The position numbers and the translations under genes were made by a program. This document shows, piece by piece, positions 37,845 to 64,000 of a stretch of 64,000 nucleotides of DNA. The notes under the pieces were generated by a model, which was not told the origin of the DNA, ran no database searches, and saw nothing but the letters and a program-made list of their open reading frames with translations. Source of the stretch: a virus; the IMG/VR virus record IMGVR_UViG_3300033121_000981, positions 1 through 64,000 of that record; one strand, 5' to 3'. How positions within the stretch are numbered: the first letter of the stretch is position 1; each line of letters opens with the position of its first letter.

Positions 37845-38832
37845 GATTAAGACAGCTACAGAAAGTTACGTAGTTAATTACCCTGAGTTTATCCAATTTG
37901 CTGATACACAGTTAGAGAAATGTTTTTGGACAGCTAATGAGATTGCTATTGAAAAAGATAAACAAGATATTCTAATTAATCTAACAGAGGCAGAAAAACA
38001 TGCTGTTACAACAGCTCTGAAATTGTTTGTTAAATACGAGTTATTTGTTGGAAATGAGTATTGGCTTACTAGGGTATTAAACACTTACCCTAGACCAGAG
38101 ATACAAAGGATGGCTTCTGTATTTGGAATGGTAGAATTAGCTGTTCATGCTCCTTTCTATAATAAACTGAATGAGGTTCTTGGGTTAAATACAGATGAGT
38201 TTTACACAAGCTACATTGATGATCCTGTTCTAAAAGATAGGGTAGATTTTTTGAACGGTATTGTAGGTAGCGAAGATGAGTTATTAAGTTTAGCTGTTTT
38301 TAGTATTATTGAAGGAGCTATCCTATTTAGCAGTTTTGCAATGTTTAAGAATTTTCAATCAAACGGGAATAACTACATTAGTAACATTGTAAGAGGGATA
38401 AACCAAAGCTTGATTGACGAAGGTTTGCATCAACAAGCAGGGGCAGCATTATTTAAGCAAGTTTTGAAAGAAACAAAATTAGATAAAGAGTCTAAAAAAC
38501 TATTATTTAAAAATATTCAAGATGCTGCTAAAAATGTCGTAACTCATGAAGAGCGTATTGTTGATATGCTGTTTGAGAAAGGCCATCTGCGAGGAATAAC
38601 AAATACGCAGCTAAAAAACTTTGTTGCAAGTAGAGTTAATATTTGTCTAAGTGATTTAGGGATTGAACCTGTATTTTATGTGGAAGAAAATCCTGTAGCA
38701 GATTGGTTTTATAAAAGCGCACAATCATTTCAACAAATTGATTTTTTTACAGGAATAGGTAGAGAATACCAAAGGGGTTGGAATGAAAAAGGATTTATTT
38801 GGAAAACAGAAAAGGATATCGCTGCAACATGA
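37768..38832 (+). CDS. nrdB: ribonucleotide reductase small subunit (class I, NrdB/NrdF-like)
   Basis: helical di-iron fold motifs; FSIIEGAILFSSFAMF. Confidence 0.85.
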   Translation: MQELLKQELNIENGLKSRRNQMKSPKIKTATESYVVNYPEFIQFADTQLEKCFWTANEIAIEKDKQDILINLTEAEKHAVTTALKLFVKYELFVGNEYWLTRVLNTYPRPEIQRMASVFGMVELAVHAPFYNKLNEVLGLNTDEFYTSYIDDPVLKDRVDFLNGIVGSEDELLSLAVFSIIEGAILFSSFAMFKNFQSNGNNYISNIVRGINQSLIDEGLHQQAGAALFKQVLKETKLDKESKKLLFKNIQDAAKNVVTHEERIVDMLFEKGHLRGITNTQLKNFVASRVNICLSDLGIEPVFYVEENPVADWFYKSAQSFQQIDFFTGIGREYQRGWNEKGFIWKTEKDIAAT

Positions 38833-46389: not shown

Positions 46390-48810
46390 TCACGTCAACC
46401 CTTCCAAAGTGATTGTACATATGGATTTCAAATGGTAATTAACATCAATACTGAAATCCTTGTAGAATCCATATATAATAGAAGAACCATAACTAGCACT
46501 CCCAACATACACTGTAGGAGTAGCCCTATAGCCAGCTAATATATTAGAAACAGTATCAACATCAGATGCATCTATAAATATTGTCATTGTAGCGTTCTTT
46601 CTGAATGCCCTTTGCAATATTGTGTAATTCCCAAATGTATCTTGTGTTTTAACAGAATAATCTTGAATACCGAGCTTCATACCTAGCTCAATTCCAACAG
46701 GGACGTTAGAATCATTTAAATATGAAATATCCTTAGATAACCCCAATACTAATCCACCCAATAAAACAGTGTTACCTGTATCAGTAATTGTTACTACAAT
46801 TGTAGAGTTAGCATATGGAAGTAAATCTGTTACAACAAAATCCACTGTACGTACAATAGGTTCAAAGAAATATGCATACCAATCTGTAACACCACTTGTA
46901 GAGATTAATGAGTAAGTTTCATCATAAACTAATCCATCTGTAGCATCTATTTGTTTAATATTAACACTAGCTCCACTTATATTTAATAAAGCAACACTGT
47001 CAATACGTCCTGTTGTTTTAAATATATTTTGAATAGTATTTGTATTACTAGATTGACTGGTAATACTTTGATCAAAAGCTTTCCACTTGTTTGTATTACC
47101 TACAGATAACCAATATGTTGTATTTGTAACAGGTTGGTTATAATTCATAGAAGCTGTATATGTATGTACCCCACTTTGTGTTCCTGTTGTATTAATAGCA
47201 CTACCACCAGATGTTGCTGATACGTTAAATGTATCTGTTGTTGGTGATTTAACATAATATACTGTACCTGCAACTAATCCAGTAGGTAATGCTCCAGTAG
47301 TTGTAAAACTAATAGGTGTATTATCTGCTAACCCGTGAGCAGTAGCTGTGAATACTGCTGGAGAAGCAATTGTTACTGTAAATGTAGCTGTGCTTCCTGA
47401 TAAACTCTGATAAATCTTGTGAGTATCCCCTGAAACATATTTGACATAAGTTCCAGTTGTATATACAGTGGAAGCAGAATAATCTGGGTAATCATTTTCT
47501 GTAATATTGCTAGAAACAAATGTTCCAGAAGAATTACCTACAACATCTGCTGCGCGTGTTACTGTGGAAGATGTTGTAGGGATGTAGCTGGTAGCGGTTG
47601 TGCCTAGTTCTATCTGTGCGCCCCAAATGTATATAGATTCATCCCCGTTTGCTATCCAAGTAGTCGCTTGATTATCCGCAGTATGCACCTCTATTAGTGG
47701 AGAAGAAGCAATAGCAGGCATAGTCCTAGTTATTGAACACCTATACCACCCATTACCTAAATTCTTCATAGTTGCTGTAGTACCGCTTTTAACAGTACCT
47801 ACAACCCCCGCAGACAAATCAAAAAAAGCACCCTGAACTACTGCACTATTCCCATCTAAACATAACCCTAACCAGTTTACAGTACCTGTTTTAGCAAAAA
47901 CGGACATAGTGTAGGCAGCAGCAGTGGGGGTGTATGAACCATAAATATACTTCTGTAAGGACGTAGCTCCTGCTGTAAGGGTGTCAGCGGTAATGTTTCC
48001 GTCAGGTGCAGAAACACTGTTAGCTATGATAGAAGTATTTAACTTACTCCAAGCCGCACTATTAAACTGTTCTGAATACGTCAGAAGGTTTGTTGAAGCT
48101 GTCTCATACAATAGTGCAGCGTAATCAGTAGAAGCTGTATATGTTGCTGGAATTGTCCCATTGTAGCCAACACTTTTTATATATGTGGAGGCTGTTGAGC
48201 CTAATTCTACCTGCGCGCCCCACAAATACAAATCCCCTGTAGTCAATCCCTCAAATAAAACGACAAGAGCTGTTTGGCCTACAGAATATGTCACAGTGAG
48301 TGAACAACGAAACCAGCCATTTCCGACAGAAGAAATTGACCCTACGCCTGGGTTACTTTCCTGAAACACTGTCCCAGAAGAGATGTCAAAAGTGGCGCTT
48401 GTCCCAATGTAAAAAGCCTCTCTTATTCGGAACTGGTTGCCACTTATCGTACCGGCTTTTACGAAAACGCTGATTGTATAAGTACCAGAAGAAATGGTTA
48501 TTTGTTGATTAGTGTACCCAGGAAGTGCTGACACTGTGAGCGTATCAGCAGTCATAGTACCGTCCGGTGCAAACGTAGTATTAGAACTAAAGCTTGCGTT
48601 CATGCAACCCCACAGTACATTTTCAAACTGTTCTGAATACGTCAGTAGATTTGTAACAGCAGCAGTAGCCTGAGTGTACGTAATATTAGAATTCACCCGT
48701 GCATTGTCTACTGCTGCTGTTTGTAATACATTAGATGTGTCATAATATGTAGCTGTAGATGCTCTACTAAATTGAGCATCCGTCACAGACATAGGACGGA
48801 TGATTTTCAT
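46390..48810 (-). CDS. tail fiber / host-specificity protein with internally duplicated jelly-roll-like domain
   Basis: LLTYSEQF...APDG..TADTLT occurs twice (around aa 60 and 235); 806 aa. Confidence 0.65.
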   Translation of the reverse strand: MKIIRPMSVTDAQFSRASTATYYDTSNVLQTAAVDNARVNSNITYTQATAAVTNLLTYSEQFENVLWGCMNASFSSNTTFAPDGTMTADTLTVSALPGYTNQQITISSGTYTISVFVKAGTISGNQFRIREAFYIGTSATFDISSGTVFQESNPGVGSISSVGNGWFRCSLTVTYSVGQTALVVLFEGLTTGDLYLWGAQVELGSTASTYIKSVGYNGTIPATYTASTDYAALLYETASTNLLTYSEQFNSAAWSKLNTSIIANSVSAPDGNITADTLTAGATSLQKYIYGSYTPTAAAYTMSVFAKTGTVNWLGLCLDGNSAVVQGAFFDLSAGVVGTVKSGTTATMKNLGNGWYRCSITRTMPAIASSPLIEVHTADNQATTWIANGDESIYIWGAQIELGTTATSYIPTTSSTVTRAADVVGNSSGTFVSSNITENDYPDYSASTVYTTGTYVKYVSGDTHKIYQSLSGSTATFTVTIASPAVFTATAHGLADNTPISFTTTGALPTGLVAGTVYYVKSPTTDTFNVSATSGGSAINTTGTQSGVHTYTASMNYNQPVTNTTYWLSVGNTNKWKAFDQSITSQSSNTNTIQNIFKTTGRIDSVALLNISGASVNIKQIDATDGLVYDETYSLISTSGVTDWYAYFFEPIVRTVDFVVTDLLPYANSTIVVTITDTGNTVLLGGLVLGLSKDISYLNDSNVPVGIELGMKLGIQDYSVKTQDTFGNYTILQRAFRKNATMTIFIDASDVDTVSNILAGYRATPTVYVGSASYGSSIIYGFYKDFSIDVNYHLKSICTITLEGLT

Positions 48811-48834: not shown

Positions 48835-51800
48835 TTACGTTCCAATACGCTCAGGAGGAATACCATCACCATCCCACTGACGCATTAACTTGCTTGATAC
48901 ACCAGTGTTTTGAGCAACAGATAGCAATGCAGCATTAATTTCCATACGCATTGCTCTAATTTCCTCTGCTGTACTATCTGCATCTCTTGCAGCTTTAGCT
49001 GTCAATACACGCTCTCCGGCATGGAGATTGGCCCTGTAATTATCAAAAGGAACCATATCCAAACCATCAGCATGACTACCATGTATAGATTGATATTCAG
49101 CACTCTTATAAAAATCCCCCATAACATCAGTTATAGTGAAATTGTTTTTGGATGCGTTATCAACCCACCAATCTAACCCTGCTTGATCTGGCGCTCTTCC
49201 AAGTACAGTTTGGTATAATCCAGCAATCTCATCCCTAGTAGCTGGCTTTGTAGCAGATAATGCTGGATTAGATGCAATAGCAGATGGGGAAGCTTGAATA
49301 GAATTAATTGCAGCCCTGCTACTCTCTGCAAATGCTACCATAGCACTAGATAAGTCTTTTATAGCAACATATGTACCATTCATTAAATCAATCTGTTGCT
49401 GTGCCATCTGCAACATAGAATCATATTTAGCAATCTCACCATCATATTTAGCTTGAGCTGCTGCTTGCTCTGCATCAAACTGTGCTACTTGCAAATCATA
49501 ATTACTTTGCAATAATGTTAAGCTATCCTCTAAAGCAGATACTTGCCTGTCTGAATTACTTTTAGCTACTGTAGTAAGATCATTAAGATCAGACACAGAA
49601 TTTTTCGTCATCTGAAAGTCTCTAGCGTAATCTTCATATGTTGCAAACAAGTCTTGAGATGCTTGTGTTAAAACACTTAAAGGTTTAGATAGTTCCTCAG
49701 ATGTTGGTAAAACTCCTGTGCTTCTTGCTACAGCTAAAGCTGTTGTGATAGTATTCTGAGCAGCAGTTCTTACAGATGCTTCAGTACCTGCTAATGTCAT
49801 ACTCTCAAGAGTTTTTGTAAGACTACTAGATAAACTTGAGAGAGCTGTATTAGCTGTTTTAGCAGTGTCTAAAGTTGCTTGAATAGCTGTCTTAGTATCA
49901 TTAAATACTTTCTCAGCACTATTTTTCTGAGCTGTAATTGCAGCAGTTTGTGCATCAAACGTAGCTTTACTTATATCCTTGCTAGATTCAATACTCTTTT
50001 GTAATACCTCATAATCTTTATTGGCAGCAGCTTTTAAAGTGCTTGTAGATGTTGTAAGCGATACAATAGAAGCATCTAGTTCAGAGAAAGCTGATGACAG
50101 ATTTACTAATTTAACCCATGTTTTCTGACCGCTTAATGTAGTTAAATCAAGAGATTCAATCATCTTTCTTAATTCATCTTTAGTGGAAGGCATGGTAAGT
50201 CCCAGATCACTAAAATTTTTAGAAAGAACTTTTGTAGCTTCATTAACTCGTTCTTGCTCTGTATAGTAATTTTTGAAATATGCAGAAGTTGTTGATTGCA
50301 TATTACTTAAACTACCAAACATATCTACAAGATTTGAAGCTAACTGAGCACCAAATAACGATGATTCATATACCCTATAATTCAAACTATCAAACATTGA
50401 ATTAACAGCTACTAAGCTTCCTGACAACCTAGTAATAGTTTCATTTGAAGTTTCACCAGTTTTTGCAAATGTAGCTATATTAGGTATAATCTGTTCAGCT
50501 AAACTATTAGCCATATCAGAAAACGCTTTATTAATTGCTTCAGTATTCGCTTTTGAGTCTGCTGTTAAAATTATATTTACATCTTGACTATAGCCTTTTA
50601 TCTTATCAGCAGATATCCCCAAATTCTTAGCAGAGGTTAAAGCAGCGTCAGTAACAGCGTAGAAACCTTTAGCTAGCTCTTGTTGCGTGCTAGATGGTAA
50701 GTTAGACCTTATAGTACCTGTTCTGTCTCCAGTGAACCACCCTCCAGCTTCTTTCCACTTTTGAAAGGAATTACCTGAGAATCCTTCGGATGTACTAAAG
50801 TTACCTTCTATTCCTGCGCTTTGAATCTCTCTCTCACCATGACCAAAACCTTTCTTCAATATAGTTGCTACAGCTAAAGCAGCAGCTACCCAAGGAATAG
50901 CAGCACCTATAGTAGAACCTATAGTGGCAGCAGCTTCTGCTGCTGTAGTAGCAGCTCCTAGAGCTTGTGAAGAGGCCGCTATAGCTGCCTCGCCAGATGT
51001 CACAGCGGCTGCTGCTGATCCAGCTCCTGATATACCTGCCCCAAAAGAACTGAGAGCACTTGAACCAAAAAGATTACCAGCAGTTGTAATTGCCCCACCA
51101 ATATTAGAAGTTAATCCACCTGAGAAACCATCCCATAAGGCTTTACCAGCAGAGTACATACTGTACATACCACTTAATCTACCACTTAATCCACCACTGG
51201 AATTTCCGCTTGCATAACTTGCAAAAGTAGCCTGAGCTTGAGCTGTACCTGTTGCCAAGGCTCCACTAATAGGCGCTAGAATTGGTTGAAGCAATGTTTT
51301 AGCAAAACCAAGCTTCATATCGTTGAGTATCTTCTTCCAGCCTTTGCCACCACCCTCTATAACAGCATTAGCTAAATCGTCAGAATATTGCTTATTAGAA
51401 CGTTTCCAAGCTTCGTTATATTCCGCTATAGCTTTTTGTTGTGCTTGCTGCATCTCTTTACTAAATTGCAAATCACGATACTCTATTTGTTTTGCAATCA
51501 TTGTATTAATGTGCTCTAATGCTCTCTGGTCGTAAGCATCAGTTATATCACCATTAGCAACTATAGCTTCACGTTCTTTGTATAAATTATCAATCTTAAC
51601 TTGTGTAATATTATCTTGGAGTTGCTTTTCAGTAACACCAGCTCGTTTCATAGCCTCTGGAAGAGAATCATATGCTTTTACTTGAGCAGAAATTGCATCA
51701 ATATTTTTGTTAATATCGTTTAGCTCTTTTTCTCTAGCCTTTTCTAGTTCTCTGAAAGGTTCTTGACTAGCATATATACTCTCAATACGGGCTTTTTCTA

Positions 51801-54570
51801 TTGCTGTATTTGCATCAGCAATCAAGCCAGTGTATTTTCTTGTTATGGATAATTTCTTTGTTTTTGCTGCTATTGTTAAATTTTCATCTTTAACATTATA
51901 TAACTCTGCTGCCTTTAAGTCTTTATCCATGGCATCTTGCATAAACTGAATACGCTTCAATTCTGCATCTTTTATGCTAAGATAGATATCTTGAGCACTC
52001 TCCATCTTATATTTTTTACGGAGCTTATCTAATGTAATTTCGCGTTCTAATGCTTGGACATTTTCTTGATAAACTAGAGCATTTTCCGCTATTGCTTCAT
52101 TAACGTTTAGGAGACCTTGAGATTTACCTTTTTTATTATCCTGAAGAACTCCAGTTCCAGTTTTATGTTTTTTTAAAGCTTTTTTAGCTTCTTCATCAGC
52201 AAGCTTTGCTAGTACCCTAGCTGCATCTACAACAAGCTTCAGAGATGCTTCTGTTTCAGCGTATTTTTTATTAGTTGTATCCCTAGCATTTTGTAAAGCT
52301 TTTTCTGCGGACAATAGTTGTAATATTTCTTTCTCATTAGCTGAGTGATATGGTAATACACCTGTTGAACGGTACTTATCCATTGCTCTTACTTGATCTG
52401 GATTTAAAGCTCCTCTAGCTTTCCTTACTTTTTCTTCAGCCTCATTAACAACTTTAGTTCCTTGCAATTTAACCAATTCAAGTTGCTGGTCTCGTATAGC
52501 TTGTGTTTCAGCATCCCTAGCAGTTTTGCCTTGTATCATTAACTCGATTTGCTTATTTAACCTTTTAGCTTCTTCATCAAGCTTACCTTTAAAGTCATCC
52601 ATGTAATTCAAAGCAGCTTTACTAGAACTTGAATTAGTGGCTTCGTCTCTTTTAGTAGTCCACCACACAAAGGCTGCTGCGCCAGCAGCTAAAGCAATAC
52701 CTAACACACCTAATGATGCTTGGAAAGCCATAGAAGACCATTTTGCTAAATCCATAGCTGTTTTTAATGCAATAAAGCTTTCAGCTATACCAACCAGTAA
52801 CCCAACTACAAAAGAAGCTGCTTTAAAAGCTAAAATAGCTCTAACAATTTCATATAATGCTGAAGAGTTTTCAACTAAAAACACTGCTAAATTTGCAGAA
52901 GCTGTTGCTAAAGATTGTATCCCACTGATAAACTCTGGCGAGTTAAAAGCAGCTTTCATACGTGTAGCTACTAATGATAATTCTGGCTGAATATCTTGAA
53001 AAGCTTTAACTAATGTTGTTTCAAGAGAATTCTTTACAGATTTGAATTGAGCATCTACAGTGAGGGCCATAGCTGCTGCACCAATAGCTGCAAAGCCATA
53101 ACTTTCATCAATTGATTTATTTAATGCCTCTAATTTGTTTTTAAAACCTTCAGCACCGTCTCCAGCTTCTGCTATCTTAGTTCTGTAAAGCCCAAGAACT
53201 TCAACAACATTCTTCATACCACGTTCATTAGCGAGTTCTGCTAATACTTTTTTCTGTGCAGGAGCTTTAAGAGTATCTAACCCATCAGATAGTTTTTTAA
53301 CAACATCAATTAGATTTAAGAAATTACCCTGATCATCTTTAAATGAATCTGGGGTTAATTTTATTTGTTTGAGTGCATTCTTAACTTTATCAGACTCAGA
53401 TGCTAACTCTTTGTACATATTTTTAAGAGATGTACCTGCTGCACTACCTTGAATACCTAAATTACTTAAAGCTGCTAACGATGTTCCCACATCTACCAAG
53501 GATATACCGTACAATTTACCTACTGACGAACCAGATTTAAACGCTTCTGATAAAGATTCAACACTAGACATAGAAACAGCAGCAGTCTTTGAAATAACAT
53601 CTGCAATACGACTATAACCTTCAGCACCATAATTCAAAGCTGTACCAACTTGAACTAATGTATATGCTGATTTCTCAATTGTTGTTCCACCAACAGTTGC
53701 AAGATTTAAGGCGTCCTTAATACCGCCTAAAGCTTGCTTGGCATTCAAACCAGCTAAAATAAGAGTTTCAAATGCTTTAGCAACCTCTTGTGGCCCATAT
53801 ACCCCCGTTCCAATTTGCAAAACAGCTTCTCTAATAGCATTAACTGATGCAACAGTTTCTAGTCCCTTTACACGTATGCTTTCCAGCGTTTGTTCGACAT
53901 CTTTACCAATTGTGACAATACCTTTTAATGATGCCCCAATTGCCAACCCTACAGCCATCCCTGCTAGATTGCCGTATGTCACCCACAAAGCACCTAAGCT
54001 ACCAGATAATCCTCTAGCTAGAGCATGACCTTCCTTCATGCTTTCATTATGAATTCTTTGGCTTCGTGCTGTACTGATGATACTATTATTAGCATCTCTT
54101 AATGCTTGTATCATAGGAGCTGCGGAAGAAGAAACGCCTAAGTTAGCAGCTTTTGCTTCTAATTGAGCAATATTATAATCTTTAATCTGCTTAGTAGTCA
54201 TTCCAAGCGTAGCCGTTTTTTGCTTTAGAGTTTCAATAAACTTATCACTGGATACCCTAGCATCATCAATATTCTTTTTTGTCGGCCCCATTGCAGACGC
54301 TAACGCATTAGTGCCACCAGCAGCAGAACGAGCATTTGCATTTAAACTATTCAAAGCATTAGCTTGTTCCATCATCTTACCCATGAAGCTGTCAGCTCCT
54401 TGAGCAGATGCTCTGCTAATAGCGTTAAGCTTCTCCATGGCGGCTATAAAAGATGTTACCCTACGCTCAGAATTCGCAGCAGACGTAGATAACCCACTAA
54501 GGCTATTACTAGCCTCTTTGATTCCATCACTTACAACTTTAATTTGTAGGCTAGTAATATCTACGCTCAT
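48835..54570 (-). CDS. tail tape measure protein, 1911 aa, with C-terminal DUF4214-like module
   Basis: size, coiled coils, Gly/Ala-rich hydrophobic blocks, position after the chaperones; LYQTVLGRAPDQAGLDWW motif. Confidence 0.85.
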   Translation of the reverse strand: MSVDITSLQIKVVSDGIKEASNSLSGLSTSAANSERRVTSFIAAMEKLNAISRASAQGADSFMGKMMEQANALNSLNANARSAAGGTNALASAMGPTKKNIDDARVSSDKFIETLKQKTATLGMTTKQIKDYNIAQLEAKAANLGVSSSAAPMIQALRDANNSIISTARSQRIHNESMKEGHALARGLSGSLGALWVTYGNLAGMAVGLAIGASLKGIVTIGKDVEQTLESIRVKGLETVASVNAIREAVLQIGTGVYGPQEVAKAFETLILAGLNAKQALGGIKDALNLATVGGTTIEKSAYTLVQVGTALNYGAEGYSRIADVISKTAAVSMSSVESLSEAFKSGSSVGKLYGISLVDVGTSLAALSNLGIQGSAAGTSLKNMYKELASESDKVKNALKQIKLTPDSFKDDQGNFLNLIDVVKKLSDGLDTLKAPAQKKVLAELANERGMKNVVEVLGLYRTKIAEAGDGAEGFKNKLEALNKSIDESYGFAAIGAAAMALTVDAQFKSVKNSLETTLVKAFQDIQPELSLVATRMKAAFNSPEFISGIQSLATASANLAVFLVENSSALYEIVRAILAFKAASFVVGLLVGIAESFIALKTAMDLAKWSSMAFQASLGVLGIALAAGAAAFVWWTTKRDEATNSSSSKAALNYMDDFKGKLDEEAKRLNKQIELMIQGKTARDAETQAIRDQQLELVKLQGTKVVNEAEEKVRKARGALNPDQVRAMDKYRSTGVLPYHSANEKEILQLLSAEKALQNARDTTNKKYAETEASLKLVVDAARVLAKLADEEAKKALKKHKTGTGVLQDNKKGKSQGLLNVNEAIAENALVYQENVQALEREITLDKLRKKYKMESAQDIYLSIKDAELKRIQFMQDAMDKDLKAAELYNVKDENLTIAAKTKKLSITRKYTGLIADANTAIEKARIESIYASQEPFRELEKAREKELNDINKNIDAISAQVKAYDSLPEAMKRAGVTEKQLQDNITQVKIDNLYKEREAIVANGDITDAYDQRALEHINTMIAKQIEYRDLQFSKEMQQAQQKAIAEYNEAWKRSNKQYSDDLANAVIEGGGKGWKKILNDMKLGFAKTLLQPILAPISGALATGTAQAQATFASYASGNSSGGLSGRLSGMYSMYSAGKALWDGFSGGLTSNIGGAITTAGNLFGSSALSSFGAGISGAGSAAAAVTSGEAAIAASSQALGAATTAAEAAATIGSTIGAAIPWVAAALAVATILKKGFGHGEREIQSAGIEGNFSTSEGFSGNSFQKWKEAGGWFTGDRTGTIRSNLPSSTQQELAKGFYAVTDAALTSAKNLGISADKIKGYSQDVNIILTADSKANTEAINKAFSDMANSLAEQIIPNIATFAKTGETSNETITRLSGSLVAVNSMFDSLNYRVYESSLFGAQLASNLVDMFGSLSNMQSTTSAYFKNYYTEQERVNEATKVLSKNFSDLGLTMPSTKDELRKMIESLDLTTLSGQKTWVKLVNLSSAFSELDASIVSLTTSTSTLKAAANKDYEVLQKSIESSKDISKATFDAQTAAITAQKNSAEKVFNDTKTAIQATLDTAKTANTALSSLSSSLTKTLESMTLAGTEASVRTAAQNTITTALAVARSTGVLPTSEELSKPLSVLTQASQDLFATYEDYARDFQMTKNSVSDLNDLTTVAKSNSDRQVSALEDSLTLLQSNYDLQVAQFDAEQAAAQAKYDGEIAKYDSMLQMAQQQIDLMNGTYVAIKDLSSAMVAFAESSRAAINSIQASPSAIASNPALSATKPATRDEIAGLYQTVLGRAPDQAGLDWWVDNASKNNFTITDVMGDFYKSAEYQSIHGSHADGLDMVPFDNYRANLHAGERVLTAKAARDADSTAEEIRAMRMEINAALLSVAQNTGVSSKLMRQWDGDGIPPERIGT

Positions 54571-54606: not shown

Positions 54607-55045
54607 TTAATTCTTTTTAAAACCACCTAATACATTCTTAATTTTATTACTTATTGCATCCCTATCTATTTGATCGTCTACAACATCGTATGGAGCTGGT
54701 CTATCTTTGTCAGAAGATGCATAGTATTCCTCACAATACTCCTTACTCAGAATTCTAACCAAACTCATCTCAAACGGTGTTACAGAAATATCAATAGCAT
54801 CTTTCCAAGCTATTATTTCTTGCCATGATAAAGGAACTATACCCATTCCACTCTGACCAACTGTTCCAGCTTCATGCCAGAATTCTGCGATATACTTAGC
54901 CTCTTCTAAATCTGGTAAAATGAGGAAGGGGCTACCTTCCCCACCAATCGAGAAATACTCCCTACGGGATTTTTCATCACCTTCAGGAGTTGCTGCTAAC
55001 CAAGCTAGATGTCTAGCATATACGCATAAATCATCTCTTATTTGG
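54607..55045 (-). CDS. T-like extension read in the -1 frame of the tail chaperone (lambda G-T arrangement)
   Basis: -1 frame open for 70 codons from the slippery site into ORF 54607-54846. Confidence 0.6.
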
Positions 55046-55439
55046 CCAAAAAATTAGCATCGCTCTCTAAAGCGGATTGAACTTGATCTTTAATCCAGTA
55101 CAAGTTATTATTACGATACAATTTACGGAAAGCTTCTGGTGTATTGATTTGAGCGTCATCATCAGTGAAATTGTGAGCTTCAATAGAGATAGCAACTAGA
55201 ATATCAATATTATCTTCGACATTAGTTTCAAATGATTGAGTTTTGTTTTTACGAGCAAGAGCTTTACGGCTCAAGTCAGAAAGGGCTTGACGATATTGTT
55301 TAGAAGCCTTACCATAAATGCTGATTTCCAATGGCTGAGTCTTTGCATCATCAGCGTACATTTTTAAACCTGTTTCAGGGTCTTCCAAATGCAAACGGGT
55401 GGATTCAGAGATGGATTTTTTATTAATATTGAATGACAT
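55038..55439 (-). CDS. tail assembly chaperone (G-like)
   Basis: position before the tape measure, size, slippery site at the 3' end. Confidence 0.6.
   Translation of the reverse strand: MSFNINKKSISESTRLHLEDPETGLKMYADDAKTQPLEISIYGKASKQYRQALSDLSRKALARKNKTQSFETNVEDNIDILVAISIEAHNFTDDDAQINTPEAFRKLYRNNNLYWIKDQVQSALESDANFLAK
55047..55053 (-). promoter_or_regulatory. -1 slippery heptamer T_TTT_TTG, 6 nt before the chaperone stop codon
   Basis: AAT TTT TTG GCC AAA TAA on the minus strand. Confidence 0.6.
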
Positions 55440-55640
55440 AATTTTGTTTCCTTTAATTGTAGGTTTGTGTTAAAATTGTTTTCTCTTTTATGAGAATATT
55501 GTTATAATTAGGTTTAGACAAATAAAAGCTACTAACAATGGTAACTTAGTTCTTTTCATGCGCCATAGTAGCATTCATGAATGCTTAGATGGAGGTTAGG
55601 TAATATGCCCAACCTCCGTAGGCTGTTTTATTACTATTGA

Positions 55641-56099
55641 TTAGGTAGCGTTCTCTGTGATGTCTGAGTCCAATTCCAGCTTGATTTCTGCACCAAGAAT
55701 AGAGTTGATACTACCAACGTTAGTCATGAAACTCATTGTCTTAGCTGTAAAATAAGCTTTGCTACCATCCTGATTAGTAACTCGGAAACTGTACGATGAA
55801 TCACTGTTAGATGCTGCCAAAGCAATAACTTGACCCGCATCAGTAGAGACTAAAGTTGCTTTAGCAAGCTTCACTGACAAGCTACCGTTATTATACGAAC
55901 CCCTAAATTTATACGTCTTCCGATCATTCAATGGATTGTGTGTAACCAATGTATAATCTTTACCAAACGTACCAATATCTGTCACTTCACCTAAGGTAGT
56001 GTACGTAAGGGCAGAAAAACCTGAATTATCATAAGTAGCTGGTAGGGATGCGCTGATAGCAATGGACGTACCGGCGACTGTTTGGGCCTTTGTTGTCAT
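55641..56099 (-). CDS. major tail tube protein (putative)
   Basis: position between terminator and chaperones; Ser/Thr-rich beta-type sequence. Confidence 0.5.
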   Translation of the reverse strand: MTTKAQTVAGTSIAISASLPATYDNSGFSALTYTTLGEVTDIGTFGKDYTLVTHNPLNDRKTYKFRGSYNNGSLSVKLAKATLVSTDAGQVIALAASNSDSSYSFRVTNQDGSKAYFTAKTMSFMTNVGSINSILGAEIKLELDSDITENAT

Positions 56100-56120: not shown

Positions 56121-56477
56121 TTAAACGATGATTGCTGCTTTAACTACTGCACCTGTTGCTGCTGTAATTGCTACGACACCTTGTAGATACGCTGGAATAG
56201 TATCTAGTCGAATTACATTAAACGTACCTGCCGTTACAGTGACATCTAAACCTGATGCAACACTAACTGTCAATGCACCAGCGCCTGTAACAGGAACTGT
56301 AGTACCAGATGCACCATCAATTGTTACCACTACATCTGATGCTGATGTGTTGTACAACAAAAGTTCTTGACCAGTGTTTGCTGAATATGTTAGAGTATCG
56401 CCAGAAGTGGCTAATGCAATAGATGTGGCTGTAAAACCACCTAATACATTTTTAGATGTACTTGGGACTGCTGCCAT
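56121..56477 (-). CDS. hypothetical structural protein (Ala/Thr/Val-rich)
   Basis: ORF track. Confidence 0.4.
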   Translation of the reverse strand: MAAVPSTSKNVLGGFTATSIALATSGDTLTYSANTGQELLLYNTSASDVVVTIDGASGTTVPVTGAGALTVSVASGLDVTVTAGTFNVIRLDTIPAYLQGVVAITAATGAVVKAAIIV

Positions 56478-56490
56478 TTATTTTTCCTTT

Positions 56491-56889
56491 TTAAGTTTCT
56501 AATTCAAGTCTATATGGAATTATGATCGGAATAACTCGATATCCACCTTCATCAATGATGGCTTGTCGAATGCTTGGTGTTGCTTCAATACTTGTTGCTG
56601 TTGTTTTTGGAACAATAGGGAATGCCGCTTGTACAGCCCTAGCGATATCCTCACCCTGTTTTGTTCCAACATCTTGTTGTGTATATACATTTATTTGCAT
56701 ATACCCCATATCTCTTTGTCGTGTTCCATCTGTTGTAACGTCTAATAAAACAGATGGTATGATTAACATCTCAAGAAATGGGGCATTGTTTGGAGGTTTT
56801 TTAAATCCGTTGTTTTCATAAGCAACAGGAATATTTAAGCTAGCTGCTAAAGCTGCAACCCTAGGGGTTAGATCACTTCTTACTGTCAC
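56491..56889 (-). CDS. tail terminator protein (gpU/DUF4128-like, putative)
   Basis: pattern AYEN..F..P....P...LI......G.R..GYMQINVY...G. Confidence 0.5.
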   Translation of the reverse strand: MTVRSDLTPRVAALAASLNIPVAYENNGFKKPPNNAPFLEMLIIPSVLLDVTTDGTRQRDMGYMQINVYTQQDVGTKQGEDIARAVQAAFPIVPKTTATSIEATPSIRQAIIDEGGYRVIPIIIPYRLELET

Positions 56890-57320
56890 ATATACTCTCC
56901 TTTTAGTTTTATCAGAGATTTACTAACCATACCATAAGGTAATGCACCTCTCCATTTTGTACCTGGCGTTCCACTTGGCCAACCTAATGTTTCAACTCGG
57001 TATGCATAAGGTAGATTATTAGTAAAATAAATTACATTATCCTTCCCATAAAAAGGTTTTTGTGATAATGTAGAATTAACTCTATTAGTGCTATCTAATC
57101 CAGATGGGTTAGTTGCATTTGTATAAATTGTTGATGAATTACCTATATCAGAATACCACTGATTTATAAGATGATTATTAGAATATTTCCCTGTTGCTTT
57201 TGTAGGGGATAATGAAATTACGCTAGATGTAAATATCTTATAAGCATTACAAACACTGTTATTTATATCGTCTAAAGCTTTTTGTTCAAATTTTTTAATA
57301 TCTTCTAAAAAATTAGTCAT
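56886..57320 (-). CDS. head-tail joining / tail completion protein (putative)
   Basis: position only. Confidence 0.35.
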   Translation of the reverse strand: MTNFLEDIKKFEQKALDDINNSVCNAYKIFTSSVISLSPTKATGKYSNNHLINQWYSDIGNSSTIYTNATNPSGLDSTNRVNSTLSQKPFYGKDNVIYFTNNLPYAYRVETLGWPSGTPGTKWRGALPYGMVSKSLIKLKGEYM

Positions 57321-57537: not shown

Positions 57538-57755
57538 TCAATATCCTTGATTTCAGTTAAATATATTCCATCATGGGGATATTCAAATTTACCATTGTCA
57601 GTTTTACGTATATCATATATTGATGTAGTAATTTTATAATAGCTATCTAAATATGATTTTTCGCTATCAGATGAATTTAAATAACAGGAAGATTTAACAC
57701 TGTCGTAATGTAATTTTTGTGCGTTTATAGCTTCTTCTAAAGTGTCATAAATCAT
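57534..57755 (-). CDS. hypothetical protein
   Basis: ORF track. Confidence 0.4.
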   Translation of the reverse strand: MIYDTLEEAINAQKLHYDSVKSSCYLNSSDSEKSYLDSYYKITTSIYDIRKTDNGKFEYPHDGIYLTEIKDIE

Positions 57756-60351: not shown

Positions 60352-61380
60352 TTAAGACTTGGTAAGTTTAATAACTACTTCTGGACGCATCAATGCATTT
60401 ACAAAGTTTGTTTCAGCATCAATACGGTGCTCAGTACCATCTTGTGAAGGATTCTCAAAGAAATACTGACGCTCACCTAATGTATTTGCAGTGAAGAAAC
60501 GATTAGCAGGGCCAAAATACGTTTTGAAGAAGTCAGTACCAGTTGGGACAGCTACAGCAGTATTTGTTGGAATTAGTTGCGAGCCATTATAAGTATCACG
60601 CATCTCAATAAAACGAGCACCACCATAGAAAAACTCACGGTGATAAGGGACAGCACTGCCATCAGCAGATAAACGTGCACGTAACGGGTCTTGCTGACTA
60701 GCAAAATATTGGAAAGCTGTTCTAGTTGTAGCATGGCCAACTAAGGCTGCAAACCATGTAGGTGAACATAACACAACAACACCAGACATAGAGATAGCAC
60801 CACCGTTATCTTGAATAGCAGCAATAACAGTTTCAATTTTACCAATGACATCTGTAGTTGATGTACTAAATGCAAAATCTACTTCAGTTTGAGTGATACC
60901 AAACTCAGTGAACCAGTTTTGAGAGACTGTACCTGTTGGAGCATATACAGTACCTAGTGTCAATGCTTGAGCACGTGCTGCTTCAAGAGTCCAGTTCAAA
61001 CTCTTAGCAATACGCTCCATTTTCCGCATACGGACAGCATCCAATGTCTCGGCAGCATCTGCACTACCGTATGCACGTCTACCCTGAACGTCTGATGGAC
61101 TAATATAATCAGTTAATGGGAAATGAGGGATATTGAATGAATGTACTTCACGTGCATAATCTTTACTTACATTGTTGCGCTCACCACGAATACGATCAAC
61201 AACCAAACCAACACTTTGATCTACTTTGTCAAACTGAACAACATGCTCGGCGACTGATTGTTCTTGAAACAAACCTAAACTACCAATTGTTCCCCAAGAG
61301 TTAGGGATAATATTCAGTTCTTCTGTATAATCAACAACAGAGAATTGACCAGTTGAACCAAAACTTCTTGTAATTGCCAT
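60352..61380 (-). CDS. major capsid protein (lambda gpE-like position, 342 aa)
   Basis: gene order portal-protease-scaffold-decoration-capsid; size. Confidence 0.7.
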   Translation of the reverse strand: MAITRSFGSTGQFSVVDYTEELNIIPNSWGTIGSLGLFQEQSVAEHVVQFDKVDQSVGLVVDRIRGERNNVSKDYAREVHSFNIPHFPLTDYISPSDVQGRRAYGSADAAETLDAVRMRKMERIAKSLNWTLEAARAQALTLGTVYAPTGTVSQNWFTEFGITQTEVDFAFSTSTTDVIGKIETVIAAIQDNGGAISMSGVVVLCSPTWFAALVGHATTRTAFQYFASQQDPLRARLSADGSAVPYHREFFYGGARFIEMRDTYNGSQLIPTNTAVAVPTGTDFFKTYFGPANRFFTANTLGERQYFFENPSQDGTEHRIDAETNFVNALMRPEVVIKLTKS

Positions 61381-61415: not shown

Positions 61416-62111
61416 TTACGCCTGAGTTGCAACACGAATACCAAGTGCGTCTAATTGGGCATAAGCAGCTGTTAGAGCAGTACCTGTTACAGAAGCACCA
61501 AAAGTAAGTTGTGATTTATTTACAATTGCTGGGCCTTTAGTGATTGCTAGAACAACTAAATCTGTATTAAGTGTTGTTGCAGATGATTGTGACAATCCAA
61601 GAGCATCAGCGATATAAATAGCAGCAGCAACTTGAGAACCATCTGTTGCGGATGCTTCTACAATTTTGTATTTTTTAGTACCTGTTACAGTGATTGGGAT
61701 ATAATCACCTACAACAAAATCTGTAGAGCCGTCTGCTAAGGTAAAAGCAAAGCCTGCTTGAGAGAATGCTGTACCAACTTGACCAATACCGATTGCTTGT
61801 CCTTGAGGGTCAAGCAAAACAAAATCACCAGCATTGCTTACAGTTTTAGTAATTTTTAAAGTATATGTACCAATTTGTAGGCCCAAAGAGGCTGACATTG
61901 TAATAGAACCCATAGTTCCATTACCTGTACCTACAGTTGTTCCTGCGGTTGCTGTAGGGCTTGCTAGATATGAACCAAGAACAGTACCAACTTGCAGAGT
62001 AGTAGCAGTACCGTTAAAAGTGATATTATCGCGGCAAAAGCCGGAAGCTGGATCGTATTCAGATTTTACAACGTTACCAAAACGGGTACTTTCAGTTGCA
62101 ATTGTGGTCAT
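61416..62111 (-). CDS. head decoration protein (putative; Thr/Gly/Ala-rich)
   Basis: position between scaffold and capsid. Confidence 0.45.
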   Translation of the reverse strand: MTTIATESTRFGNVVKSEYDPASGFCRDNITFNGTATTLQVGTVLGSYLASPTATAGTTVGTGNGTMGSITMSASLGLQIGTYTLKITKTVSNAGDFVLLDPQGQAIGIGQVGTAFSQAGFAFTLADGSTDFVVGDYIPITVTGTKKYKIVEASATDGSQVAAAIYIADALGLSQSSATTLNTDLVVLAITKGPAIVNKSQLTFGASVTGTALTAAYAQLDALGIRVATQA

Positions 62112-62134: not shown

Positions 62135-62656
62135 TTATTTCTTATATTTTGCTTGCAACAACTTAGCAGTGTTGCTATTTGCAGCTTCTAAAATTGCTTC
62201 TTTATCTGGTTTTGACGATACGCCGATCTCTTTAAAACTAGACAAATTTTTCTCGTTATCTAAAGATACTGACATAACAGACAAAATAGATTCAAATGAT
62301 GCATCATCTAGGGATTTTGTAGCATCCATTACACTATCAACATGTGCATCCCCTAGTACAGATACTATTTTTTCTTTTCTTAATGTAGAACGTTTTAATT
62401 CTGCATCTGCTAACATCAAAGCTTTTTCTTCCTCAAAAGCATTTAATGCTGCTTTTACTTGAGCATACGAAGAAGATAGTTCTTCATATTTACTATTTAA
62501 TTCTTTGAGGGCTTCAGATTTTGTAGACAATGCTTCAAGAGCACTTGCCAACTCTGTAGCTGCCATTGTTGGCTGCGGTTCATCTTTCTTCATTTCTACT
62601 TCTTCCTCCTTGGCTTTTTCTGCCTTGTTAAAAAACTTTTTTAATGATTCACGCAT
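62135..62656 (-). CDS. scaffolding protein
   Basis: fully helical, coiled-coil, Glu/Lys/Ala-rich; position. Confidence 0.7.
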   Translation of the reverse strand: MRESLKKFFNKAEKAKEEEVEMKKDEPQPTMAATELASALEALSTKSEALKELNSKYEELSSSYAQVKAALNAFEEEKALMLADAELKRSTLRKEKIVSVLGDAHVDSVMDATKSLDDASFESILSVMSVSLDNEKNLSSFKEIGVSSKPDKEAILEAANSNTAKLLQAKYKK

Positions 62657-63518
62657 ATTGAATTCCTGTATTTGATGATATATAATTCATAAAATCGCTT
62701 CTGGTCATTATTTTATTAATGAATCCTACTTTCAATGCTTCTTTAGCAGAATAAGTTGAAGCTTCTGTAGATTTAATAGAATCTGTAGATAATCCTGTAT
62801 AATTTGAGACGTGCATACAAAAATCGTCATATAGAATATCTACTTTTGTTTGCAAATCTTTGATAAAAGTTGGCTTGAAACTGCCATCATCTTCGTATGG
62901 AATTTTGTTTTTTCCAGCAGAGATATAGATAGGTTTAATTCCATCTTGCTTCATCTGTTCAGAATAATCACAAAAAGAAACTAATACTCCAATTGATCCT
63001 ATATCTGAATCTGGATTAGATATGACTTCATCAGCAACACAAGCAATAGCATAAGCTGCGCTACAGCAACATCCGTCTACATAAGCTATAAGTTGAACTT
63101 TTGCATCATCACACAAAGCCCTAATATCATTAGCAGTTTCAAATGCGCCATATGACTCACCACCACCACTATCGATCCATAATACAATTGAAGAAACTCC
63201 TTCTTCAATCATATCTTCTGCTTTATCTAGTATTTCCTGATAAGAGCAACCACCGCATTCAGCTTCCCATCCAGTTGCTTTATACGTAAGTGGGCCACTT
63301 ATTTCAATAATTCCACAACTACCCGAAGGATCATCATCCCCCATCTCAGACTCACTATCATTTCCTCCATAAACTTTTCTATTAGGAAGATTCATTAAAC
63401 CAATATTCCTATCGTTTAGGTATGATAAAATATTGGAAAATAGGGGTTGAGAAATTAAGTGTGGTGTACCGTGGAGTTTTTGTGTTAATCTGAATAAACT
63501 ATGAGGCATTGTCAGCAT
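62649..63518 (-). CDS. prohead protease (ClpP/S49 family)
   Basis: SIVLWIDSGGGES and catalytic-serine region GCCCSAAY. Confidence 0.8.
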   Translation of the reverse strand: MLTMPHSLFRLTQKLHGTPHLISQPLFSNILSYLNDRNIGLMNLPNRKVYGGNDSESEMGDDDPSGSCGIIEISGPLTYKATGWEAECGGCSYQEILDKAEDMIEEGVSSIVLWIDSGGGESYGAFETANDIRALCDDAKVQLIAYVDGCCCSAAYAIACVADEVISNPDSDIGSIGVLVSFCDYSEQMKQDGIKPIYISAGKNKIPYEDDGSFKPTFIKDLQTKVDILYDDFCMHVSNYTGLSTDSIKSTEASTYSAKEALKVGFINKIMTRSDFMNYISSNTGIQYA

Positions 63519-64000
63519 TCTGTGTTGAAGAGTCTTTGTTACCAAATGGATTAGTCCTAGTTCCATCACCTGTTGGTGAGGCCATACCTTTACCAGAACT
63601 AGATTGATAACCAGCCATCTCTTCTTTATTAATCGGCATGTCAGATGGTTCTACAGCAAACCCGCCAACTTCTAATACTCTGTTTACTACTGACCTATTA
63701 ACAGGTAATAATCCTACAGAGGCAGTTCTTTGAACTAATTTACCAAACTCATCCATAGATACACCAGAGATGTTTTTATGTACAAATTTGGGGAGTTCTG
63801 TATCTGTCCACCCATTTAATCTAAATAAATGTGGTATTAAGTCATGATTGAGAACACTTGAAATTTCTTGTAAACGCCTATCAACAGCCAATGTTAAAAT
63901 ATTAGTATCACCATCCTGTAAACTAAAAGAGCCTGCAGAATCCATGCCCATTTTAAGTACACCACAAGATAGAGCATCTAAAATATTACCTTCTAGCCGC
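63499..64000 (-). CDS. portal protein, C-terminal part (gene continues beyond the window)
   Basis: position upstream of the protease; truncated by the window end. Confidence 0.55.
   Translation of the reverse strand, partial: RLEGNILDALSCGVLKMGMDSAGSFSLQDGDTNILTLAVDRRLQEISSVLNHDLIPHLFRLNGWTDTELPKFVHKNISGVSMDEFGKLVQRTASVGLLPVNRSVVNRVLEVGGFAVEPSDMPINKEEMAGYQSSSGKGMASPTGDGTRTNPFGNKDSSTQNADNAS

What the first reader, a model, noticed from the sequence alone, without database searches (positions are those of the whole stretch)
55038..55439. Unannotated programmed -1 frameshift (G-T type) in the tail assembly chaperone
The chaperone gene ends ...GCT AAT TTT TTG GCC AAA TAA, which contains the X_XXY_YYZ heptamer T_TTT_TTG six nucleotides before the stop. 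The -1 frame is open from that point for 70 codons and runs without a stop into ORF 54607-54846. This would give a fusion of about 280 aa directly upstream of the tape measure gene. That is the conserved G/GT arrangement of long-tailed phages.
Basis: partly seen in the sequence, partly recalled or inferred. Interest (0 to 1): 0.55.

Follow-up and report, generated by a model that had tools for sequence, protein, structure and literature searches.

The report
Tail chaperone G/GT programmed -1 frameshift
A phage gene that helps build the tail ends in a slippery run of T's, so a small share of ribosomes slip back one base and make a longer second protein; this trick is well known in long-tailed phages, and here it sits in a phage lineage where nobody has annotated it.

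Summary
Gene G (55439..55038, minus strand, 133 aa) ends GCT AAT TTT TTG GCC AAA TAA. The in-frame heptamer T_TTT_TTG (55053..55047) lies 6 nt before the stop. The -1 frame has its own stop immediately 5' of the heptamer. It then stays open for 148 codons to 54607, with no ATG/GTG/TTG for the first 69. So the only place a productive shift can occur is a 16-nt overlap that consists essentially of the heptamer.

The predicted fusion is 277 aa. It lies between the major tail protein gene and the 1911-aa tape measure gene. At least 10 independent relatives (32-99% identity) keep TTTTTTG at the same codon. In every relative examined T is in the -1 frame relative to G. The best 150 of 1308 homologues found in 1.84 billion representative proteins each match only the G half or only the T half.

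The start-less stretch shows coding-type substitution periodicity (183/105/402) and belongs to a confidently predicted domain (pLDDT 93.7). The G model's best structural matches are the three solved tail assembly chaperones, though weakly. No conserved downstream RNA structure was found.

Verdict: an ordinary lambda-type G/GT programmed -1 ribosomal frameshift, a new member of a known kind. Its main value is for annotation. Expression itself remains untested.

The parts
55038..55439 (-). Gene G: tail assembly chaperone, 133 aa, the 0-frame product, preceded by an AAGGA Shine-Dalgarno sequence.
55047..55053 (-). Slippery heptamer T_TTT_TTG (U_UUU_UUG): P-site Phe codon 130 and A-site Leu codon 131 of G.
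   Evidence: In the X_XXY_YYZ register. It is the longest invariant block in a 7-lineage DNA alignment. It is conserved at the same codon in L001, L002, L005, L012, L013, L014, L021, L023, L024 and L025. It is the only in-frame occurrence in 5131 structural-gene codons.
55038..55053 (-). The 16-nt overlap of the two frames. It is bounded 5' by the -1 frame TAA (55056..55054) and 3' by the G stop TAA (55040..55038), and is the only stretch where a -1 shift gives the long product.
54607..55047 (-). T segment read in the -1 frame: 146 codons plus stop. G55047 is read twice. Suggested annotation: complement(join(54607..55047,55047..55439)), giving gpGT of 277 aa.
   Evidence: Open -1 frame. phrog_18915, E 3.2e-19, matching from residue 11. 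PF23812 Phage_TAC_18, 25.9 bits against a cut-off of 27. Substitutions by codon position 183/105/402 in codons 7-70. AF2 pLDDT 93.7 with residues 1-70 at 92-98.
54607..54846 (-). The 79-aa ORF that gene callers report on their own. It is the C-terminal half of the T domain, not an independent gene.
   Evidence: It is called separately on the 99%-identical contig L021. Its ATG falls inside the conserved GMG motif and is absent in L002, which has Asn there. No Shine-Dalgarno sequence precedes it at a usable spacing.
55641..56099 (-). Major tail protein gene (152 aa), upstream neighbour of G.
   Evidence: phrog_158 'major tail protein', E 1.4e-13.
48835..54570 (-). Tape measure protein gene (1911 aa), starting 36 nt downstream of the T stop.
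   Evidence: PF10145 PhageMin_Tail, 110.6 bits, and DUF4214.

Best explanation
This is a lambda-type G/GT tail assembly chaperone pair expressed by programmed -1 ribosomal frameshifting.

Most ribosomes translate G (133 aa) and terminate at the TAA at 55040..55038. A minority, with tRNA-Phe on UUU in the P site and tRNA-Leu on UUG in the A site, slip back one base on U_UUU_UUG. Both tRNAs re-pair on UUU UUU, and the ribosome continues in the -1 frame to 54607. The product is a 277-aa gpGT with the junction ...ESDANFL|GQIRDDL....

By analogy with lambda and TP901-1 (inferred, not tested here), the shared G part coats the 1911-aa tape measure protein. The T domain recruits the major tail protein, so that the tube polymerises around the tape measure. 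The low shift rate sets a high G:GT ratio, and neither protein ends up in the virion.

Shown here: the anatomy of the site, its conservation, the coding status of the start-less stretch, and the fold evidence. Inferred: that the shift occurs and is ribosomal, its efficiency, and the binding partners.
For: 1. Anatomy. The heptamer is in register 6 nt before the stop. The -1 frame has a stop immediately 5' of it. There are 148 open codons, the first 69 without ATG/GTG/TTG.
2. Synteny. The gene order is major tail protein, G, T, tape measure.
3. Rarity. This is the only such configuration in the window. No off-frame stop-free run of 148 codons or more occurs among 562 runs in neighbouring genes.
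4. Conservation. TTTTTTG sits at the same codon in at least 10 distinct lineages with 32-99% protein identity and very different G+C content. It is the longest invariant DNA block. More distant relatives carry A_AAT_TTT, A_AAT_TTC, A_AAT_TTA, T_TTT_TTC or G_GGA_AAC. T is in the -1 frame relative to G in all 20 or so distinct loci examined.
5. No in-frame fusion. The 277-aa fusion query found 1308 homologues at E<=1e-3 among 1.84 billion representatives. The best 150 are all 79-177 aa and each matches only the G half or only the T half. All 120 listed G homologues are 129-184 aa and end with F or L at position -4, or F at -3.
6. The start-less stretch is coding. Substitutions by codon position are 183/105/402. 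Residues H15, W18, L19 and G63 are invariant and lie upstream of the first ATG. AF2 places residues 1-70 inside a compact domain at pLDDT 92-98.
7. No conserved start. The first possible start codon in the T frame ranges from codon 13 to codon 71 among relatives.
8. G resembles the solved TACs 3KLU, 2OB9 and 3FGX, which rank first, third and fifth of 48,164 chains.
9. Literature. G/GT frameshifting is widely conserved in long-tailed phages, the lambda ratio is about 30:1, G binds the tape measure and T binds the major tail protein (PMC5009743; PMC4493119).
Against: - There is no experimental evidence of the fusion product.
- In the E. coli survey, U_UU.U_UU.G is not among the high-efficiency heptamers, and the tetramer U_UUG was only 1.8-3.6 times background even with a pseudoknot (PMC4066793). 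The host and its tRNAs are unknown, and the window encodes no tRNA.
- No conserved downstream stem-loop or pseudoknot was found. RNAalifold gave 0 covarying pairs, and single-sequence z-scores were mostly not significant.
- The T-part match to PF23812 is 1.1 bits below the curated cut-off.
- Some relatives have no canonical heptamer (GCT TTT ACA; ACT TTT ATT; TTG GGG AAG TAG), so the heptamer is not universal in the family.
Confidence: 0.9

Rival explanations
1. Transcriptional slippage. RNA polymerase adds one extra U on the T6 run in a fraction of transcripts. Normal translation of those mRNAs then gives the same kind of GT fusion, with no ribosomal slip.
For: The slip site is a homopolymer (T6 in the window; T7 in L009 and L014). 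U and A runs are known to cause transcriptional slippage (PMC4066793; PMC5009743). Sequence analysis alone cannot separate the two routes.
Against: Six T's is short for efficient slippage by bacterial RNA polymerase (my own knowledge, not tested here). Relatives that keep the same G/T arrangement have only four T's (GCT TTT ACA, ACT TTT ATT, CGT TTT ACC) or mixed heptamers (A_AAT_TTT, G_GGA_AAC). These suit tRNA re-pairing but not polymerase stuttering. The strict X_XXY_YYZ register with the 0 frame is required for ribosomal slippage and irrelevant for transcriptional slippage.
Confidence: 0.05
2. There is no recoding. G terminates, and a separate T protein is made by its own initiation: at the ATG at 54846 (79 aa), or by termination-reinitiation at a non-canonical codon near the G stop.
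For: Gene callers report the 79-aa ORF. In some relatives a TTG or ATG lies early in the T frame, for example codon 10 in L002 and codon 16 in L015.
Against: The 69 codons upstream of the ATG have no ATG/GTG/TTG, yet they evolve as coding sequence. They contain invariant residues. They form helices 2-20, 30-35 and 50-62 of one confidently predicted domain. The ATG is not conserved, since L002 has Asn there. The first possible start varies from codon 13 to 71. Homology to relatives begins at residues 1-3 of the -1 frame, exactly at the slip site. No Shine-Dalgarno sequence precedes ATG 54846 at a usable spacing.
Confidence: 0.03
3. A homopolymer indel error in sequencing or assembly. The real gene would be one continuous G-T ORF, or the window would carry a recent inactivating mutation.
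For: Homopolymer runs are the classic site of indel errors, and a single extra T would fuse the frames.
Against: The same T6 run and the same frame arrangement appear in independent assemblies from different samples and platforms: DRR783868, SRR33394499, ERR12387323, SRR22198304, SRR13325288, GCA_040384165.1, IMG/VR contigs and GenBank isolates. None of the best 150 homologues is a fused protein.
Confidence: 0.01

Closest known systems
Bacteriophage lambda gpG / gpGT (Levin, Hendrix & Casjens 1993; Xu, Hendrix & Duda 2004, 2013, 2014; summarised in PMC5009743)
   Same: Two overlapping ORFs lie between the major tail protein gene and the tape measure gene. There is a -1 shift on an X_XXY_YYZ heptamer a few codons before the G stop. 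The downstream ORF has no start of its own. G is about 130-140 aa and GT about 280 aa. No strong downstream structure is needed.
   Different: The heptamer is U_UUU_UUG rather than G_GGA_AAG. There is no detectable sequence similarity to lambda G or T: no Pfam hit for G, and no GenBank phage hit for G by tblastn. The tape measure is more than twice as long, at 1911 aa. Efficiency and binding partners are untested.
Lactococcus phage TP901-1 gpG/gpGT (PMC4493119)
   Same: The gene order and -1 shift are the same. Genetics there show that both G and the correct G:GT ratio are needed for functional tails, which is the basis for the functional inference here.
   Different: TP901-1 uses GGGAAAG, has a different host phylum, and shows no sequence similarity.
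Solved tail assembly chaperones HK97 gp13 (2OB9), B. subtilis YqbN (3KLU), Rbstp2171 (3FGX)
Unannotated G/T pairs of about 100 GenBank Vibrio siphophages (P23, K-series, 1.151.O, phiHSIC), Acinetobacter phage MD-2021a and Salicola phages
   Same: The T domain is homologous (26-35% identity) and the G family is homologous by profile. The -1 arrangement is the same, with a conserved UUN codon four codons before the G stop.
   Different: They are distant. Several lack a full heptamer and have only a U_UUU tetramer. All are annotated as two hypothetical proteins.
E. coli dnaX and IS3/IS911-type -1 frameshift signals
   Same: They use a heptamer of the X_XXY_YYZ kind, with tandem tRNA slippage.
   Different: Those signals rely on an upstream SD-like element and a downstream hairpin or pseudoknot. 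Neither is conserved here.

Membership tests
Lambda-type G/GT tail assembly chaperone with programmed -1 frameshift (Xu et al. 2004 criteria) | Two ORFs located between the major tail protein gene and the tape measure gene | tested here: met
   Major tail protein gene 56099..55641 (phrog_158). G 55439..55038. T runs to 54607. Tape measure gene 54570..48835 (PF10145)..
Lambda-type G/GT tail assembly chaperone with programmed -1 frameshift (Xu et al. 2004 criteria) | Downstream ORF overlaps the 3' end of the upstream ORF in the -1 frame and lacks its own start or RBS | tested here: met
   The overlap is 16 nt. There are 69 codons without ATG/GTG/TTG. The first possible start is not conserved among relatives.
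Lambda-type G/GT tail assembly chaperone with programmed -1 frameshift (Xu et al. 2004 criteria) | Slippery X_XXY_YYZ sequence in the 0-frame register within the overlap | tested here: met
   T_TTT_TTG at 55053..55047. It is unique among 5131 structural-gene codons.
Lambda-type G/GT tail assembly chaperone with programmed -1 frameshift (Xu et al. 2004 criteria) | The arrangement and slip site are conserved in relatives, and the two parts are never fused in frame | tested here: met
   At least 10 lineages carry TTTTTTG. All loci have T in the -1 frame. The best 150 of 1308 homologues match one half only.
Lambda-type G/GT tail assembly chaperone with programmed -1 frameshift (Xu et al. 2004 criteria) | The fusion protein is actually made, at a low ratio to G, and is needed for tail assembly | not testable with these tools
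   This needs mass spectrometry, western blotting, a reporter assay or genetics.
Tail assembly chaperone fold (Pell et al. 2013 'spiral' TACs: 2OB9, 3KLU, 3FGX) | The G protein adopts the TAC core fold | tested here: inconclusive
   [not shown]
Pfam PF23812 Phage_TAC_18 | Score at or above the gathering cut-off (27 bits) | tested here: not met
   The window's T part scores 25.9 bits, E 1.1e-5, covering only profile positions 37-78. Six of 8 aligned relatives match at E<=1, best 2.8e-7. This is a near miss, so the T part is related but not formally a member.
PHROG phrog_313 (tail assembly chaperone) / phrog_18915 | Significant profile match | tested here: met
   The T part matches phrog_18915 at E 3.2e-19 (function unknown in PHROGs). 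G matches phrog_313 only weakly, E 3.4e-4.
Stimulator-dependent -1 PRF (dnaX / IS3 type) | Conserved downstream hairpin or pseudoknot 5-9 nt after the heptamer | tested here: not met
   RNAalifold on 7 lineages found only a 7-bp hairpin 30 nt downstream, with 0 compensatory pairs and a positive covariation term. Single-sequence folds differ between relatives.
Transcriptional slippage sites | Long homopolymer run conserved as such | tested here: not met
   The window has T6. Relatives with the same arrangement have T4 or mixed heptamers. The minimum run length needed by the host polymerase could not be tested.

The most novel reading that the evidence does not exclude
Across this large, uncharacterised chaperone family, the universally conserved element may not be the heptamer. 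It may instead be a single U_UUN codon fixed four codons before the G stop: all 120 listed homologues have F or L at -4, or F at -3.

Several members, including about 100 Vibrio phages with GCU UUU ACA or ACU UUU AUU and a clade with UUG GGG AAG UAG, have no canonical heptamer and no detectable RNA stimulator. If they still make GT, the family would use a minimal tetramer-type or P-site-only -1 shift. Its stimulator would be something not yet recognised, such as the fixed proximity of the stop codon or the nascent G C-terminus.

The window's heptamer would then be an 'upgraded' version of that site. The slip could occur one codon earlier, with Phe in the A site and a junction reading ANFF-GQ rather than ANFL-GQ.
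Probability: 0.15. Interest if true: 0.45.

Novelty: new member of a known kind. Interest (0 to 1): 0.25.

Why it matters
The main value is for annotation.

- The correct gene model is complement(join(54607..55047,55047..55439)), a 277-aa gpGT. The 79-aa ORF at 54846..54607 is a fragment, not a gene.
- The same correction applies to a whole family. More than 1300 representative proteins match at E<=1e-3. The family includes 106 GenBank phage records (Vibrio, Listonella, Salicola, Acinetobacter) that currently list two hypothetical proteins.
- It assigns a function (tail assembly chaperone) to a G family that has no Pfam model.
- It gives a clean, 16-nt-delimited natural U_UUU_UUG site without an obvious RNA stimulator, which could serve as a reporter substrate.

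Conceptually it adds nothing new. G/GT frameshifting has been known since 1993 and has been shown to be widespread since 2004.

Tried and rejected
- **Megablast against GenBank phages.** The locus and 24 kb around it gave no relative, apart from a 48-nt hit in a ribonucleotide reductase gene. The window's phage is not in the collection, so its own annotation could not be inspected.
- **tblastn of G against GenBank phages.** No hit. G relatives were reached only with a profile.
- **First relative search with the 8-sequence T alignment.** It was too divergent for pattern search and was repeated with 4 sequences.
- **Scan of 185,579 species genomes for T relatives.** None found, so there is no evidence of prophage relatives and no host assignment.
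- **Downstream stimulatory RNA.** Single folds gave z-scores from -0.3 to -4.2 and structures that differ between relatives. The consensus fold has no covariation. Rejected as unsupported.
- **Upstream SD-like stimulator.** GAGAG ends 9 nt upstream of the heptamer in the window. GAGGA or GGAGA is present in L001, L005 and L012 but absent in L002 and L013, and the element coincides with a conserved Glu codon. Not claimed.
- **Pfam and PDB-sequence profile searches for G.** Only noise.
- **Second candidate from the window-wide heptamer scan** (ORF 38845..39156). Rejected as a spurious ORF nested in the 585-aa gene 38799..40556.
- **+1 frame.** It closes after 11 codons.

Full report
**1. What is in the sequence**

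On the minus strand, the ORF 55439..55038 encodes a 133-aa protein ending ...ESDANFLAK. Its last codons are GCT AAT TTT TTG GCC AAA TAA. The heptamer T_TTT_TTG (55053..55047) is in the X_XXY_YYZ register of the 0 frame, and 6 nt separate it from the stop.

The -1 frame reads ...TGC TAA TTT TTT GGC CAA ATA AGA.... It has a stop codon immediately 5' of the T run. It is then open for 148 codons, to the TAA at 54609..54607. The two frames are therefore both open over only 16 nt, and that stretch is essentially the heptamer plus the last two G codons.

The first ATG/GTG/TTG in the -1 frame is the ATG at 54846 (codon 70). That is the start of the 79-aa ORF that ORF finders list. The +1 frame closes after 11 codons.

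A tandem slip gives a 277-aa product: 131 residues from the 0 frame and 146 from the -1 frame, with G55047 read twice and the junction ...DANFL|GQIRDD....

**2. Context**

The locus sits in a textbook siphovirus-type structural module on the minus strand:

| Gene | Coordinates | Evidence |
|---|---|---|
| Prohead protease | 63569..62649 | phrog_53 |
| Decoration-like protein | 62111..61416 | PHROG hits |
| Major head protein | 61380..60352 | phrog_29 |
| Tail completion protein | 57320..56886 | PHROG hits |
| Tail terminator | 56889..56491 | PF13554 |
| Unknown, 118 aa | 56477..56121 | no family hit |
| Major tail protein | 56099..55641 | phrog_158 |
| G, then T | 55439..54607 | this finding |
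| Tape measure protein, 1911 aa | 54570..48835 | PF10145 |
| Large tail protein | 48810..46390 | PHROG hits |

The phage has no close relative among 50,697 GenBank phage records. Its major capsid protein is 51% identical to that of Limnohabitans phage DC31. G+C content is 30-40%, and the window contains no tRNA gene.

**3. Is it more than chance?**

- In the 80 ORFs of at least 100 aa, in-frame X_XXY_YYZ heptamers occur at 114 of 18,154 positions (0.63%). With two or three eligible positions in the overlap, the chance expectation is about 1-2%.
- Only two ORFs in the whole window have a heptamer from which the -1 frame runs at least 50 codons past the 0-frame stop. One is G. The other is a spurious 103-aa ORF nested inside the 585-aa gene 38799..40556.
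- The G site is the only in-frame T_TTT_TTG in 5131 codons of 12 structural genes.
- In the -1 frame of 11 neighbouring genes, stops occur at 0.112 per codon. The mean stop-free run is 7.9 codons and the longest of 562 runs is 79. A 148-codon run is therefore not a composition effect.

**4. Relatives**

Sequence searches recovered independent relatives from IMG/VR, Logan, ENA, NCBI and JGI assemblies and from GenBank isolates. In every distinct locus examined (about 20), the T-homologous frame is -1 relative to the upstream 129-162-aa G homologue. The overlap is typically 16-52 nt.

TTTTTTG occupies the homologous codon in:
- the window and its 99% twins L021 and L022;
- L001/L011, L002-4, L005/6, L012, L013/L026, L014, L023, L024 and L025/L027.

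These are lineages with 32-82% G or T identity and clearly different G+C content. In nine of the ten, the heptamer lies exactly 6 nt before the stop. In a 7-lineage DNA alignment with 66% mean column identity, the heptamer is the longest invariant block.

More distant relatives carry other canonical heptamers at or next to the same codon:
- A_AAT_TTT in Acinetobacter phage MD-2021a;
- T_TTT_TTC in Vibrio phage 1.151.O;
- A_AAT_TTC in L018;
- A_AAT_TTA in L029;
- G_GGA_AAC in L030.

Some have only a U_UUU tetramer or nothing canonical: Vibrio phages P23 and K69, L020, L017, and the L015/16/19 clade.

At protein level, all 120 listed G homologues are 129-184 aa. All end with F or L at position -4, or F at -3. 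An exhaustive HMMER search with the 277-aa fusion against 1.84 billion representatives found 1308 proteins at E<=1e-3. The best 150 are all 79-177 aa, and each matches either query residues 1-134 or residues 127-277, never both. So the split at residue 131 is universal among those, and none of them has resolved it into a single ORF. That is what is expected if the G:GT ratio matters.

**5. The start-less stretch is coding**

- Pairwise comparison of five lineages over codons 7-70 of the -1 frame (downstream of the G stop, upstream of the first ATG) gives 183, 105 and 402 differences at codon positions 1, 2 and 3.
- Invariant residues H15, W18, L19 and G63 lie in this stretch.
- tblastn and profile matches to relatives begin at residues 1-3, exactly at the slip site.
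- phrog_18915 matches from residue 11 (E 3.2e-19).
- An AlphaFold2 model of the 148-residue -1 frame product has mean pLDDT 93.7. Residues 1-70 score 92-98 and contribute three of the helices of one compact domain.
- The ATG at 54846 lies inside the conserved GMG motif, is replaced by Asn in L002, and has no usable Shine-Dalgarno sequence.
- Among relatives the first possible start in the T frame varies from codon 13 to codon 71.

Independent initiation therefore cannot produce the conserved domain.

**6. What the proteins are**

**7. Mechanism**

The best-supported mechanism is tandem -1 slippage of peptidyl-tRNA-Phe (UUU to UUU) and aminoacyl-tRNA-Leu (UUG to UUU) on U_UUU_UUG.

I found no conserved downstream RNA structure. 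The consensus fold of seven lineages has only a 7-bp hairpin 30 nt downstream, with no compensatory changes, and single-sequence folds disagree between relatives. A purine-rich stretch about 9-14 nt upstream coincides with a conserved Glu codon and is not consistently SD-like.

The E. coli survey of Sharma et al. does not place U_UU.U_UU.G among the efficient bacterial heptamers, and U_UUG alone is barely above background (PMC4066793). That fits a low-level shift such as the roughly 30:1 ratio in lambda (PMC5009743). The host is unknown, however, so efficiency is not predictable.

The functional model comes from lambda and TP901-1 (PMC5009743; PMC4493119): G coats the tape measure, the T domain recruits the major tail protein, and the ratio is critical. 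It is inferred here, not tested.

**8. Rivals**

- *Transcriptional slippage* on T6 cannot be excluded by sequence. It is disfavoured because relatives with T4 or mixed heptamers keep the arrangement, and because the strict codon register is conserved.
- *Independent initiation* is contradicted by the evidence in section 5.
- *A homopolymer sequencing error* is excluded by the identical arrangement in many independent assemblies and by the absence of any fused homologue among the best 150.

**9. Annotation status and novelty**

Automated gene calls on the 99%-identical contig L021 list the 133-aa and 79-aa ORFs separately. The four GenBank relatives inspected in detail, and all 40 records sampled across the 106 hits, annotate two hypothetical proteins with no join.

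The frameshift is thus unannotated throughout this family, but it is a standard instance of the G/GT mechanism. I rate it a new member of a known kind, with interest about 0.25.

The only mildly unusual aspect is family-wide. A U_UUN codon is fixed four codons before the stop, including in members that have no full heptamer and no visible stimulator.

Noticed in passing
window 55570-55620 (minus strand), in the 201-nt gap between the major tail protein stop (55641) and the G start (55439): A strong 10-bp hairpin (GGAGGUUGGG-N7-CCUAACCUCC) is followed by a 6-bp hairpin (GCAUUC-AUGA-GAAUGC). MFE is -24.6 kcal/mol, z = -3.2. There is no U tract, so the terminator scan missed it. It may be an attenuator or mRNA-stabilising element that keeps major tail protein expression above that of G, T and the tape measure protein.
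   Followed up: partly
L008 (Vibrio phage P23), L010 (Vibrio phage K69), L020, L017/L028, L015/L016/L019: These relatives keep the G/T -1 arrangement but have no canonical heptamer in the overlap: GCT TTT ACA; ACT TTT ATT; CGT TTT ACC; TCG AAT TTA; TTG GGG AAG TAG. Only a U_UUN tetramer, or G_GGG_AAG, remains at the homologous codon.
   Followed up: partly
L013 1501-1513 (IMGVR_UViG_3300045391_001467) and L026: Three overlapping in-frame heptamers lie in a row just before the G stop: GCT TTT TTG GGA AAG TAA contains T_TTT_TTG, T_TTG_GGA and lambda's own G_GGA_AAG.
   Followed up: no
[not shown]
   Followed up: partly
window 48835-54570 (minus strand): The tape measure protein is unusually long at 1911 aa. 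At about 0.15 nm per residue (my own rule of thumb) that implies a tail near 290 nm. It carries a DUF4214 domain near its C-terminus, residues 1776-1827. Relatives have tape measures of 1893 and 2009 aa.
   Followed up: no
window 38799-40556 (+) and nested ORF 38845-39156 (+): The 585-aa ORF overlaps a 48-nt stretch (window 40007-40054) that is 95.8% identical to the ribonucleotide reductase alpha gene of Acinetobacter phage TAC1. A nested 103-aa ORF in another frame carries AAATTTT and TTTTTTG heptamers that 'open' into the real gene's frame. This is a false positive of heptamer scanning.
   Followed up: partly
window 57752-58690 (minus strand): A 312-aa ORF between the head and tail-completion genes has a near-threshold Laminin_G_3 / concanavalin-A-like lectin domain (27.0 bits against a cut-off of 27.6) and a weak virion structural protein PHROG hit. 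It may be a head- or neck-associated carbohydrate-binding protein.
   Followed up: no
window 43325-43795 (minus strand): A 156-aa ORF just downstream of the tail fibre region matches phrog_1128, 'enoyl-CoA hydratase/carnithine racemase-like', E 1.1e-19. This is an odd neighbour for tail genes.
   Followed up: no
window 56121-56477 (minus strand): A 118-aa ORF between the tail terminator and the major tail protein gene has no PHROG or Pfam match. A gene of 115-118 aa sits at the same position in L002, L004, L021, L023 and L024.
   Followed up: no
Genome-contig scan: No T-domain relative was found in representative genomes of 185,579 bacterial and archaeal species with the patterns used. This chaperone family therefore appears confined to free or lytic phage sequences, and no host could be inferred for the window.
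   Followed up: no
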